Positions 1 to 1,636 of a DNA stretch of 1,636 nucleotides are shown piece by piece; the stretch's first letter is position 1; the number at the start of each line of letters is the position of its first letter. Origin of the DNA: Naegleria gruberi (Eukaryota); NCBI GenBank assembly GCA_000004985.1, contig GG739362.1, one strand, 5' to 3'. The translations under genes were made by a program, and so were the position numbers. Under the pieces are notes generated by a model. The model ran no database searches. It saw only the letters and a program-made list of their open reading frames with translations, and was not told the DNA's origin.

Positions 1-1035
1 GACTTGATTCAAGAAATAAAGAATGTTGAATTTATTGACAGAATGCCAAAACCAGATTCAATATTTCTGGTTACTACTAATCAAAAGGATGATGAAGGAA
101 AACCAAGTATAATTTCTGACCTTGCTTTTGGCACACATCCATCCTCTTGGAAAACATTCGTACCACGAGTTGTCAAAGGTTACTCCTTTGGTACTCACAA
201 AACTTTAGAGTGTCGTGGTGTTTCCTATTGTACAACATGTAACAAAGGTGCTGAAGATGGTGAAGTTTACACTAAGAAATTCACCTTTTGTAGGAAGATG
301 GAGCCCATTACAGGCAAAGTGTGTAATACCAAGCTAGTGAAGTTGGGTGAGAAGTGTATGCATAGGGTAAGATGGTACAAAACAGCACCAGACGAAGGTG
401 GAAACATGATGAATCTGGTCATGTTTGAAAAGGCACATGCTCACAATACTGTTATTACAGGTAAATTCACCAAGAAGGCGGAACAACTAATTGAAGAACA
501 TGTGAAGAAGAACCCCAGAGTGAAAGCTTCACAATTAAAGAAAAGACGTTCTACAAATCTAGTTGCGAAAGATTGCTCTGCACTATTGAACAATGATGCG
601 GTAGCATCATTGGTAAGGAAGAAGAAGGATAAGCATTACGGGCAGAACAGGTTCAAGGATATGCCAGACCTTGCTAACGCCCTAACCGAGTCGTACCAAA
701 AAGAGCACAAAGATGATAAAAGAACCGTGCTTGGTACCATTACAAGGGAATTGGGGGTCTCAATTTATTTGAGAAAGTTTGGCAGTGTGAAAACATTTTT
801 GAAATGGTGGAAAGCAAGAATTGATATTCTAATCAATCCAAACGTGCGTGTAACTACTAATAACATCGCAGAATCGAACAATGCGCTGATTAGAATAGTG
901 ATAGAAGATGCTAATTTGTCAATTGAATTCAAAAACAGTTTTGAAGTTGATGTTTTAACCTTCGATTTGTTACTTTCTAAACAAGCGGGGTACTTCTTGG
1001 AGACTCAGCAACAAACAAGCGTTGTTAAACCGTAA
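1..1035 (+). CDS. 5'-partial ORF, probably the C-terminal part of a Mutator-like (MULE)/IS256-superfamily transposase-derived protein. It has a putative FAR1/WRKY-type zinc finger and a catalytic-E signature. The frame is open to the left window edge; the first in-frame ATG is at 43.
   Basis: There is an uninterrupted frame +1 of 345 codons with no stop from nt 1; the track lists it from the TTG at 4. Codon usage is yeast-like. A Cys/His pattern C96-x10-C107-x37-H145-x-H147 (nt 289-444) sits in a 'F.C...GkvC..klv....RWyk....f...HaHN' context that resembles the FAR1/WRKY-GCM1 zinc finger. The motif T-T-N-N-I-A-E-S-N-N-A-L-I-R (nt 853-894) fits the Mutator/IS256 consensus TxNxAESxNxxI[KR] around the catalytic glutamate. 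The ORF ends at TAA 1033-1035. Confidence 0.55.
   Translation, partial: DLIQEIKNVEFIDRMPKPDSIFLVTTNQKDDEGKPSIISDLAFGTHPSSWKTFVPRVVKGYSFGTHKTLECRGVSYCTTCNKGAEDGEVYTKKFTFCRKMEPITGKVCNTKLVKLGEKCMHRVRWYKTAPDEGGNMMNLVMFEKAHAHNTVITGKFTKKAEQLIEEHVKKNPRVKASQLKKRRSTNLVAKDCSALLNNDAVASLVRKKKDKHYGQNRFKDMPDLANALTESYQKEHKDDKRTVLGTITRELGVSIYLRKFGSVKTFLKWWKARIDILINPNVRVTTNNIAESNNALIRIVIEDANLSIEFKNSFEVDVLTFDLLLSKQAGYFLETQQQTSVVKP
289..444 (+). other. Putative FAR1/WRKY-GCM1-type C2H2-like zinc-finger DNA-binding module inside the frame +1 ORF
   Basis: Translation reads YTKKFTFC(96)RKMEPITGKVC(107)NTKLVKLGEKCMHRVRWYK...NLVMFEKAH(145)AH(147)N. It has a C-x10-C spacing followed by HxH, with a conserved-looking Trp/aromatic between the two ligand pairs. 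Confidence 0.35.
853..894 (+). other. Mutator/IS256-superfamily transposase signature around the putative catalytic glutamate (TTNNIAESNNALIR)
   Basis: The sequence act act aat aac atc gca gaa tcg aac aat gcg ctg att aga translates to TTNNIAESNNALIR. It is compared by eye to the TxNxAESxNxxI[KR] / 'TTNxIESxNxxIRR' motifs of MURA-like and IS256-like transposases. Confidence 0.4.
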
Positions 1036-1507
1036 AAAGTGGGCATACAACAATGACGGAGTGCCAAACTTAAACCAGGTGGATGAAGTTGGTGGTGAAA
1101 GTGTGGAAATTAATAATGATGAGGATTATTGTGAAAATAATAATGCTGTGGATGAGGATGAAGTGGATGATGAAGTGGATGATGAAGTAGATGAAGTAGA
1201 TGAAGAAGTGGATAATAATAGTGAGAATGATGATGAAGAGGAGGAAGGTGAGGAAGATGGGGATTATGTTGAAGAAGAGGAGGAAGAAAGAAGAAAGAAG
1301 AAAACAAAAGTTACTAAAAAGAAATGGAAGAATGTAACAAGAAGAAAGCAGGAGAAGAAAAATGAAGAAGAGGAAGGTGAAAGTAAAAATGAGAAGACAA
1401 AAATAAGTCATTTTAGAAGATGGAATGAAGATGTGAAGAGTTTAGGGAGTAAAAGAAAGAGGAATGTAGTAGATTATAAAAAGACTAATGGTGATGATAG
1501 TGAATAA
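1022..1507 (+). CDS. Frame +2 ORF with no ATG at all. It encodes an acidic (DEV)n/poly-Glu tract followed by a Lys/Arg-rich NLS-like tail. It is most likely the downstream, post-frameshift part of the preceding gene (a frameshift at the CCG-TAA-A stop would make effective coding start at 1034).
   Basis: Frame +2 is open from 959 to TGA 1505-1507. The translation contains no Met; the track's 'M' is a TTG. It overlaps the frame +1 ORF by 14 nt as listed, or 77 nt of mutually open frame. Composition is strongly biased: D/E 1151-1290, K/R 1289-1470. An AATAAA overlaps the stop and AT-rich 3' signals follow, which suggests a genuine gene 3' end. Confidence 0.45.
   Translation: MLNRKKWAYNNDGVPNLNQVDEVGGESVEINNDEDYCENNNAVDEDEVDDEVDDEVDEVDEEVDNNSENDDEEEEGEEDGDYVEEEEEERRKKKTKVTKKKWKNVTRRKQEKKNEEEEGESKNEKTKISHFRRWNEDVKSLGSKRKRNVVDYKKTNGDDSE
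1151..1213 (+). repeat. Imperfect in-frame tandem repeat (GAT GAR GTR)n, about 7 units of 9 nt. It encodes DEDEVDDEVDDEVDEVDEEVD.
   Basis: The unit is seen directly: gatgaggat gaagtggat gatgaagtggat gatgaagtagat gaagtagat gaagaagtggat. Confidence 0.65.
1225..1400 (+). repeat. Long polypurine (GAA/GAG/AAG-rich) low-complexity tract on the + strand. It encodes poly-Glu then a Lys/Arg-rich stretch, and includes a (GAA)n-like microsatellite at about 1266-1300.
   Basis: The + strand is almost purely purine across this span. The complementary pyrimidine strand produces the spurious F/L/I/P/H-rich minus-strand ORFs (1070-1411 and 1110-1307). Confidence 0.55.
1289..1330 (+). other. NLS-like basic cluster RRKKKTKVTKKKWK; a second basic patch KRKR lies near 1450-1470
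   Basis: This is the direct translation of frame +2. Clusters of at least 4 K/R in a row are typical of classical monopartite or bipartite nuclear localisation signals. Confidence 0.35.
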
Positions 1508-1600
1508 AGGGAAATATTATTTAATGGTTTCATCAGTTCTTGTTTAATACAACAAGAATAATAAAATGCTACAATTAAAGTATAAAAAATTTGTAAAAAT
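1503..1600 (+). promoter_or_regulatory. Putative yeast-type mRNA 3'-end formation region. AATAAA overlaps the TGA stop, followed by an A/T-rich tract with TATAAAAAA and AATAATAAAA elements.
   Basis: tgAATAAAg lies at 1503-1509, aataataaaa at about 1557-1566 and tataaaaaa at about 1581-1589. These match the efficiency/positioning-element style of budding-yeast 3' UTRs. This is a sequence-based guess only. Confidence 0.3.
1537..1558. other. Perfect 8-bp inverted repeat (ttcttgtt / aacaagaa) with a 6-nt loop (taatac). It is a potential stem-loop in the 3' UTR.
   Basis: Seen directly: 1537-1544 ttcttgtt, loop 1545-1550, and 1551-1558 aacaagaa is the exact reverse complement. Confidence 0.45.
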
Positions 1601-1636
1601 GCTAAAACTTCTCCAAGAATCGAACACGCGCTGTTG

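What the first reader, a model, noticed from the sequence alone, without database searches (positions are those of the whole stretch)
1..1035. Mutator-like (MULE/IS256-superfamily) transposase-derived gene in a yeast-like genome
Two family hallmarks co-occur in the correct N-to-C order. The first is a FAR1/WRKY-GCM1-style zinc finger (C96-x10-C107-x37-H145-x-H147 within FTFCRKMEP…GKVCNTKLVKL…RWYK…FEKAHAHN). The second is the C-terminal catalytic-glutamate signature TTNNIAESNNALIR, which fits TxNxAESxNxxI[KR]. MULEs are rare in budding yeasts. Where they do occur they are often domesticated, for example the K. lactis alpha3 mating-type-switch gene. A hit here could therefore represent either an active element or a co-opted gene. 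The ORF is open to the window edge, so the DDE aspartates may lie upstream.
Basis: partly seen in the sequence, partly recalled or inferred. Interest (0 to 1): 0.7.

Follow-up and report, generated by a model that had tools for sequence, protein, structure and literature searches.

The report
Core-deleted Mutator-like transposase gene copy
The window holds a damaged copy of a Mutator-type "jumping gene" enzyme that keeps its DNA-binding zinc finger and one catalytic motif but has lost the roughly 200 amino acids carrying the rest of the active site, so it is an ordinary transposon relic from a very divergent lineage, or less likely a co-opted DNA-binding gene.

Summary
Frame 1 is open from base 1 to the TAA at 1033-1035. 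The Cys/His cluster and TTNNIAESNNALIR are present in the stated order and are far beyond chance.

The Mutator reading is supported, but only indirectly. The window ORF hits no Pfam, NCBIfam or PDB model. It has a single real relative among 1.84 billion representative proteins, on a 2-kb metagenome contig (L001).

L001 carries 207 extra residues exactly between the two blocks it shares with the window. Those residues hold two candidate catalytic Asp and a CxxH motif. Its best NCBIfam match is the IS256 transposase model (E 0.0011, far below the curated cut-off), aligned from CxxH to the E motif.

So the window copy has an in-frame deletion of the catalytic core at nt 781-783. L001's start codon aligns only 13 residues before the window edge.

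There is also a +1 frame change at a G-run (nt 987-990). Behind it, a 171-codon acidic/basic tail stays open in frame 2.

Best reading: a defective, non-autonomous copy of a divergent MULE. A domesticated DNA-binding protein is the main rival. The host organism, terminal repeats and copy number could not be checked. Interest is modest.

The parts
1..1035 (+). Frame-1 ORF of 344 codons, cut at its 5' end by the window edge, ending in a premature TAA at 1033-1035
   Evidence: 0 of 5000 shuffles are stop-free. L001's start codon aligns 13 residues before window residue 1.
100..780 (+). N-terminal homology block: Zn-binding DNA-binding region plus linker, shared with L001 residues 42-256
   Evidence: tblastn E 4e-21. 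BLASTP against P0002 gives 2e-12.
211..444 (+). Cys/His cluster C71, C77, C80, C97, C108, C119, H146, H148. The FAR1/WRKY-GCM1-like core runs from C97 (nt 289) to H148 (nt 444), with W125 conserved in RVRWYK.
   Evidence: All eight ligands are invariant against P0002. P0002 gives a weak, in-register Pfam FAR1 hit (E 0.18, profile positions 33-86 of 90). The family description comes from PMC1702500.
781..783 (+). Deletion junction. One codon (G261) stands where L001 has 207 residues holding the candidate D1 (FNIDSAYD), D2 (FSVDFS) and CxxH (GCHFHYFQN).
   Evidence: The two tblastn HSPs abut at nt 780 and 784, while the L001 composite jumps from residue 256 to 464.
784..993 (+). C-terminal transposase remnant: the conserved W pair (W269/W270, nt 805-810) and the E-motif helix TTNNIAESNNALIR (nt 853-894; E291 at nt 871-873)
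   Evidence: tblastn E 3e-14, 38% identity. Motif chance is 3 in 200000. The same DNA pattern finds bona fide MULE and IS256 genes in metagenomes.
985..994 (+). Site of the +1 frame change (GCGGGGTACT, with the G-run at 987-990)
   Evidence: Frame-1 homology ends at nt 993 and collinear frame-2 homology follows. Removing one G gives a continuous 501-codon ORF.
992..1507 (+). Frame-2 continuation of 171 codons plus TAA. It has a short collinear match to the L001 C-terminus (nt 1013-1072), an acidic D/E tract (about 1079-1287) and a basic K/R tract with KRKR (about 1288-1480).
   Evidence: 0 stops in frame 2 against 10 and 42 in the other two frames, and 0 of 20000 shuffles are stop-free. The frame +2 HSP has E 0.09. 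Low-complexity direct repeats were found.
1508..1636 (.). AT-rich 3' flank (GC about 25%) with no recognisable feature

Best explanation
The window carries a defective copy of a transposase gene from a very divergent Mutator-like (MULE/IS256-superfamily) lineage. Shown: it is collinear with the only known relative, L001, except for a clean in-frame loss of 207 residues at nt 781-783 and a +1 frame change at the G-run at nt 987-990. Shown: it keeps the N-terminal Cys/His DNA-binding region, the conserved W pair and the E-motif helix. Inferred: the missing stretch held the two catalytic aspartates and the CxxH motif of an RNase-H-like DDE domain. The product therefore cannot cut or join DNA and could move only with a transposase supplied by an intact copy. 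Inferred: the deletion is young relative to the family's divergence, because the now useless E motif is still perfect and both reading frames are free of stops. This looks like the internally deleted derivatives that cut-and-paste elements produce. If it is translated, the product would be a zinc-finger DNA-binding protein without catalytic activity.
For: Window to L001 homology falls in two blocks with the gap between them (E 4e-21 and 3e-14). L001 ORF2 has D106, D182 (76 residues on), C220-x2-H (38 residues after D2), W288/W289 and E311. This matches the published MULE definition: (C/D)xxH 15-45 aa after the second D, and a W upstream of the E. Muta1 has D214, D283, W401 and E419 (PMC5499845). 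The top NCBIfam hit of L001 ORF2 is transpos_IS256 (E 0.0011), covering the stretch from CxxH to E. An IS256 HMM built here aligns the same stretch collinearly. With the E motif masked, the Smith-Waterman score against an IS256 transposase is still reached by only 13 of 1000 shuffles. 56 of 120 metagenome matches to the TNNIAE[ST]xN DNA pattern are Pfam-verified plant-type MULEs, and one is an IS256 transposase. P0002 gives a weak, in-register FAR1 hit.
Against: Neither the window ORF nor L001 ORF2 gives a Pfam MULE, Transposase_mut or FAR1 hit at E<=10. The IS256 hit is 18 bits against a curated cut-off of 150. hhalign against plant-MULE and IS256 profiles aligns only single motifs, at probability 3-6%. 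D1 and D2 of L001 are assigned by pattern and spacing, not by alignment. The family has only two members, and both carry a frame change. AlphaFold models were unusable (pLDDT 35 and 37). No element ends, target-site duplications or copy number could be examined. A 500-codon ORF broken by only one frame change is also what a selected host gene carrying a sequencing error would look like.
Confidence: 0.6

Rival explanations
1. Domesticated gene. [quoted passage not shown] It would resemble the MULE-derived fungal factors Aft1/Rcs1 and Rbf1, or the truncated yeast homologue TPHA0G02110. The frame change at the G-run would then be a sequencing error, a strain-specific lesion or a programmed +1 shift.
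For: The deletion is in frame. Frames 1 and 2 together give 501 stop-free codons once one G is removed. All eight Zn ligands are conserved. The tail has an acidic-then-basic architecture. Precedents exist: stand-alone WRKY-GCM1 proteins derived from fungal MULEs (PMC1702500), and truncated MULE homologues lacking the transposase domain in Saccharomycetaceae (PMC4629796).
Against: As sequenced, the frame is broken and the tail is not joined to the DNA-binding domain. The E motif is perfectly retained, which is unexpected after long evolution without catalysis. No orthologue exists to show purifying selection. There is no detectable similarity to the solved Aft2 DNA-binding domain or to any PDB chain.
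Confidence: 0.25
2. The family is not Mutator-derived. It would be an unrelated zinc-finger protein family, or a transposase of another superfamily such as hAT, which shares CxxH and the W. The E-motif match would then be convergent or due to chance.
For: No Pfam hit at all. Profile-profile probabilities are below 10%. Only one homologue was found among 1.84 billion representatives.
Against: The E-motif chance is about 1e-5 and the motif is conserved in the homologue. The best NCBIfam model of 18950 is IS256, aligned collinearly over 110 residues. The order and spacing of all five landmarks fit the MULE definition. N-x2-E-S-x-N-x2-[IL]-[KR] is typical of Mutator/IS256 and not of hAT (own knowledge).
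Confidence: 0.1
3. The copy is intact, and the deletion or frame change is an artefact of assembly or of reading an unspliced or mis-assembled sequence.
For: The frame change sits in a 4-G homopolymer. The provenance of the window is unknown.
Against: The 207-residue gap leaves a continuous ORF with homology abutting on both sides. No intron-like sequence is present to hide a core. A 620-bp collapse is not a typical assembly error in non-repetitive coding DNA (one search finds no repeats there).
Confidence: 0.05

Closest known systems
Eukaryotic MULE transposases (MuDR MURA, Muta1, Hop, Mutyl) and bacterial IS256-family transposases
   Same: The domain order is the same: an N-terminal WRKY/FLYWCH/FAR1-type zinc finger followed by the DDE region. 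The window has the W pair about 21 residues before the E, and the E-helix motif T-x-N-x2-E-S-x-N-x2-I-[KR]. The intact relative L001 also has D, D and CxxH at MULE-like spacing, and IS256 is its best NCBIfam hit.
   Different: The window copy lacks D1, D2 and CxxH. No Pfam MULE or Transposase_mut model detects either family member. No SWIM finger follows the E motif; instead there is an acidic/basic low-complexity tail. Terminal repeats and target duplications were not seen, because the window is too short.
Truncated MULE-like genes and pseudogenes of Saccharomycetaceae (TPHA0G02110 of T. phaffii; fragments in N. castellii and N. dairenensis), relatives of T. blattae TBLA0D02000 and K. lactis alpha3
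   Same: These are yeast MULE-derived ORFs that lack the conserved transposase domain, sit outside complete elements, and some are decayed (PMC4629796).
   Different: A full HMMER search of 1.84 billion representatives with the window ORF returned no such protein, so this may be a separate lineage. The host of the window is unknown.
MULE-derived WRKY-GCM1 transcription factors (S. cerevisiae Aft1/Rcs1 and Aft2, C. albicans Rbf1)
   Same: An insert-containing C..C..HxH DNA-binding domain of transposase origin, without catalytic residues (PMC1702500).
   Different: The window still carries part of the transposase domain (W and the E helix) and has a broken frame. It shows no detectable sequence similarity to solved Aft2. 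Function was not tested.
Internally deleted non-autonomous derivatives of cut-and-paste elements (for example Ds from Ac, deleted MuDR copies)
   Same: Internal loss of the catalytic part of the transposase gene, with the remaining coding sequence still closely matching the family's motifs.
   Different: No parent element, ends or sister copies are available, so the origin by deletion is inferred from a distant relative (about 30% identity).

Membership tests
Mutator/MULE (IS256-like) transposase superfamily | N-terminal zinc-finger DNA-binding domain of WRKY-GCM1/FLYWCH/FAR1 type (C..C..HxH on a four-strand fold) | tested here: inconclusive
   The C97/C108/C119...H146-x-H148 pattern is present and invariant in the homologue, with chance 89 in 20000. 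The Pfam FAR1 hit reaches only E 0.18, for P0002, and the window gives none. The fold is not testable because AlphaFold gave pLDDT 35-37.
Mutator/MULE (IS256-like) transposase superfamily | First and second catalytic Asp of the DDE triad | tested here: not met
   Absent from the window: the 207 residues that hold the candidate D106 and D182 in L001 ORF2 are replaced by one codon at nt 781-783. In L001 they are assigned by pattern only.
Mutator/MULE (IS256-like) transposase superfamily | (C/D)xxH motif 15-45 residues after the second Asp | tested here: not met
   Deleted in the window. It is present in L001 (GCHFHYFQN, 38 residues after D182) and aligns with IS256 wqrCqfHlqqN. The definition comes from PMC5499845.
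Mutator/MULE (IS256-like) transposase superfamily | Conserved W upstream of the catalytic Glu, and Glu within N-x2-E-S-x-N-x2-[IL]-[KR] | tested here: met
   W269/W270 and E291 lie within TTNNIAESNNALIR. Chance is 3 in 200000. The residues are conserved in L001. The same peptide pattern marks Pfam-verified MULE and IS256 proteins.
Mutator/MULE (IS256-like) transposase superfamily | Significant profile-HMM match to PF10551, PF00872 or an IS256 model | tested here: inconclusive
   The window ORF gives none. L001 ORF2 gives no Pfam hit, but NF033543 transpos_IS256 is its top NCBIfam hit at E 0.0011 and 18 bits, against a cut-off of 150. hhalign probabilities are 3-6%.
Mutator/MULE (IS256-like) transposase superfamily | Terminal inverted repeats and 8-10 bp target-site duplications; multiple genomic copies | not testable with these tools
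   The window is 1636 bp and holds no inverted repeats. The source contig was not found. No further loci were found in any collection.
K. lactis alpha3 / TBLA0D02000 group of yeast MULE-like genes | Sequence similarity to alpha3 or TBLA0D02000; for alpha3, location at the MAT-alpha locus | not tested
   The sequences were not obtainable here. They are known only from PMC4629796. The search returned no such hit, which argues weakly against close kinship.
MULE-derived WRKY-GCM1 transcription factors (Aft1/Aft2/Rbf1) | Stand-alone DNA-binding domain conserved as a single-copy host gene | not testable with these tools
   No orthologues or genomic context are available. There is no sequence match to solved Aft2 or any other PDB chain.

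The most novel reading that the evidence does not exclude
The locus is a functional host gene. A MULE transposase would have lost its catalytic core and become a zinc-finger DNA-binding regulator with an acidic activation tract and a nuclear-localisation tail. It might be expressed through a +1 ribosomal frameshift at the G-run. This would be a new, independent transposase-to-regulator domestication, from a MULE lineage that standard models do not detect.
Probability: 0.2. Interest if true: 0.55.

Novelty: new member of a known kind. Interest (0 to 1): 0.33.

Why it matters
Class II transposons are scarce in budding yeasts. According to PMC4629796, Mutyl is the only complete, active MULE described in Saccharomycotina. 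If the host is a yeast, a copy with a fresh-looking core deletion, a perfect E motif and stop-free frames predicts that intact, recently active elements of an undescribed MULE lineage exist in that genome. The lineage is divergent enough to escape the Pfam models, so automatic annotation would miss it. Beyond that, it is an ordinary defective transposon copy.

Tried and rejected
- Pfam, NCBIfam, PHROGs and PDB sequence searches with the window ORF found nothing relevant.
- Three word-indexed searches of 5.8 billion proteins found nothing: the window ORF, L001 ORF2, and their alignment at E<=10.
- The full HMMER search of 1.84 billion representatives gave one real hit (P0002) and one spurious repeat protein (P0001).
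- The search for related loci with the alignment found no relative in metagenome, genome or viral collections. The tool chose uninformative lysine-rich patterns.
- The viral scan with the E-motif DNA pattern gave chance hits only.
- tblastn of both composite proteins against the 120 metagenome pattern hits gave no relative of this family.
- hhalign against plant-MULE and IS256 profiles aligned only isolated motifs.
- The profile search of PDB gave chance hits.
- Two AlphaFold jobs were unusable, so no fold search was run.
- Exact look-ups of three window-encoded products found no source contig.
- tblastn of the L001 core against plasmids gave no transposase hit.
- blastn of the window against phages gave nothing.
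- Rfam and tRNA scans found nothing real.
- The sample accession of L001 was not found in the literature.
- Rejected idea: that the aspartates lie upstream of the window.
- Rejected idea: that the tail ORF is a separate gene. It has no ATG and continues the L001 C-terminus collinearly.

Full report
**Observation**

The window's frame 1 is open from nt 1 to the TAA at 1033-1035, giving 344 codons with the 5' end cut by the window edge. No base shuffle of this stretch is stop-free (0 of 5000).

TTNNIAESNNALIR is at residues 285-298, nt 853-894. The pattern T.N..ES.N..[ILV][KR] appears in 3 of 200000 residue shuffles, and a WRKY-like C..C..HxH pattern in 89 of 20000.

**Direct family tests on the window ORF**

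hmmscan against Pfam at E<=10 reports no MULE, FAR1, Transposase_mut or SWIM hit. NCBIfam, PHROGs and PDB sequence searches also give nothing relevant. The word-indexed search of 5.8 billion proteins finds nothing.

A full HMMER pass over 1.84 billion representatives finds one real relative, P0002 (184 aa, E 1e-4). The pairwise BLASTP E-value is 2e-12. The only other hit is a spurious repeat protein.

The relative changes that.

**The relative, L001**

P0002 lies on a 2016-bp metagenome contig, L001 (36% GC), at nt 287-841. It is followed in another frame by an ORF that runs off the contig end, at nt 838-2016 (393 aa).

P0002 shares all eight Cys/His of the window: C71, C77, C80, C97, C108, C119, H146 and H148. 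Its only transposon-related Pfam signal is a weak, in-register FAR1 hit (E 0.18, profile positions 33-86 of 90).

The layout is FxFC, then a 21-22 residue insert, then C-x-x-[VI]-x-W-[YF]-K, then HxH. This fits the insert-containing WRKY-GCM1 family that Babu et al. describe for fungal MULE transposases (PMC1702500). That fit is a resemblance, not a significant match.

The downstream L001 ORF carries these landmarks (ORF2 numbering):

| Landmark | Sequence | Position |
|---|---|---|
| Candidate first Asp | FNIDSAYD | D106 |
| Candidate second Asp | GFSVDFS | D182, 76 residues after D106 |
| CxxH motif | IQGCHFHYFQN | C220, 38 residues after D182 |
| W pair | SWW | W288/W289 |
| E motif | LTNNIAESMNNQLRR | E311 |

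This is the published MULE layout: a zinc finger plus a DDE domain, (C/D)xxH 15-45 residues after the second D, and a W upstream of the E. Muta1 has D214, D283, W401 and E419 (PMC5499845).

**Statistical support that L001 is Mutator/IS256-like**

- Pfam still reports nothing for L001 ORF2.
- NCBIfam's best model out of 18950 is NF033543, IS256 family transposase. E is 0.0011 at 18 bits, far below the 150-bit equivalog cut-off. It aligns ORF2 residues 214-325 with profile positions 208-318 of 338, which is the stretch from CxxH to E.
- I built an IS256 HMM from 9 stop-free family members (L108 plus eight of the 15 loci fetched from bacterial genomes). It aligns the same stretch collinearly: wqrCqfHlqqN with IQGCHFHYFQN, and tsNvlErlnkeikRr with TNNIAESMNNQLRR. 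It does not reach the two aspartates.
- With the E motif masked, the Smith-Waterman score of the L001 core against an IS256 transposase is reached by 13 of 1000 shuffles.
- A degenerate DNA pattern for TNNIAE[ST]xN returned 120 metagenome contigs. Of these, 56 are plant-type MULEs (several were verified with Pfam MULE, DBD_Tnp_Mut and SWIM), and one is an IS256 transposase with Transposase_mut at 5e-106. The peptide is therefore an empirical Mutator signature.
- hhalign against these MULE and IS256 profiles aligns only single motifs, at 3-6% probability.

I take Mutator origin as well supported but not proven. I put it at about 0.85.

**What the window copy is**

tblastn of the L001 composite protein against the window gives three collinear matches:

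| L001 residues | Window nt | Frame | E-value |
|---|---|---|---|
| 42-256 | 100-780 | +1 | 4e-21 |
| 464-534 | 784-993 | +1 | 3e-14 |
| 547-566 | 1013-1072 | +2 | 0.09 |

Three conclusions follow.

1. The 207 residues of L001 that hold D1, D2 and CxxH correspond to a single codon in the window, at nt 781-783. The IS256 profile alignment runs across this boundary in L001. The segment is therefore ancestral, and the window has an in-frame deletion of the catalytic core.
2. L001's start codon aligns 13 residues before the window's first residue.
3. The reading frame shifts by +1 at GCGGGGTACT (nt 985-994). Frame 2 from nt 992 to the TAA at 1505-1507 has no stop in 171 codons, against 10 and 42 stops in the other two frames, and no shuffle out of 20000 is stop-free. 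Removing one G of the run at 987-990 gives a continuous 501-codon ORF.

The tail is acidic (about nt 1079-1287) and then basic, with a KRKR cluster (about nt 1288-1480). This composition produces the low-complexity direct repeats.

**Mechanism**

The product cannot carry out DDE chemistry. The most likely reading is a defective, non-autonomous copy that arose by internal deletion from an intact element. The deletion looks recent relative to the family's divergence: the now useless E motif is still perfect (38% identity in this block against 26% in the N-terminal block), and no stop has accumulated in either frame. This predicts that intact copies exist, or existed until recently, in the same genome.

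The main rival is domestication as a DNA-binding protein made of a zinc finger, an acidic tract and a nuclear-localisation tract. The frame change would then be a homopolymer sequencing error or a programmed shift. Precedents are Aft1/Aft2 and Rbf1 and the truncated Saccharomycetaceae homologues lacking the transposase domain, such as TPHA0G02110 and fragments in Naumovozyma (PMC4629796).

I could not choose between these readings. No source contig, orthologue, element end or second copy was reachable, and both AlphaFold models were unusable (pLDDT 35 and 37).

**Comparison and novelty**

The locus works like a truncated MULE transposase. For membership, the window itself meets the W/E-helix criterion and fails the D, D and CxxH criteria because they are deleted. 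The profile and zinc-finger criteria are inconclusive, and the terminal-repeat, target-duplication and copy-number criteria are untestable here.

It is therefore best filed as a derivative of a divergent MULE, not as a MULE transposase. Truncated MULE-like ORFs in yeasts are already described, so this is a new member of a known kind. The unusual points are the divergence (undetected by Pfam, with one relative among 1.84 billion proteins) and the apparently young state of the copy.

The assumption that the host is a yeast is plausible. The sequence is 37% GC with no sign of introns, has acidic/basic low-complexity tracts and an AT-rich 3' flank, and the one conserved CTG codon reads as Leu. It remains unverified.

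Noticed in passing
L001 nt 809-841: The only relative also has a broken frame. The zinc-finger ORF (frame 2, stop at 839-841) and the DDE ORF (frame 1) overlap in an A-rich stretch (CCAAAGAAGAAAATC) and need a -1 shift to be joined. This could be decay, or a programmed shift like that reported for K. lactis Kat1. It is undecided.
   Followed up: partly
L071 1816-2241, L098 673-1284, L101 1812-2321, L012 1280-1453: Four metagenome ORFs carry TNNIAES-x-N in a transposase-like context. L098 also has D...FP..(x)C-x2-H...KN upstream of the motif. The two scanned against Pfam (L098, L071) gave no hit; L101 and L012 were not scanned. They may be further MULE-like lineages that current models miss.
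   Followed up: no
window 1079-1480: A long acidic tract (DEDEVDDEVDDEVDEVDEEVD...EEEEEE) is followed by K/R-rich clusters (RRKKKTK, KRKRN) in frame 2. It resembles an activation domain plus a nuclear-localisation signal. It gives only weak low-complexity Pfam matches (Nop53, YL1), all below cut-off.
   Followed up: partly
window 1617-1625 (minus strand): The reverse complement reads GTTCGATTC, like a tRNA T-loop, 12 nt from the window edge. The flanking bases do not form a T-stem, and neither ARAGORN nor Rfam finds a tRNA. It is probably chance.
   Followed up: partly
window 483-672: A weak Rfam match to RAGATH-9 (22 bits against a gathering score of 75, E 0.44) lies inside the coding region. 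It is taken as chance.
   Followed up: no
L001 1-286: An ORF runs in from the contig edge and ends 64 bp before the ATG of the zinc-finger ORF. It has no family match. If it is a real gene, there is little room for a terminal repeat upstream of the L001 transposase gene.
   Followed up: partly
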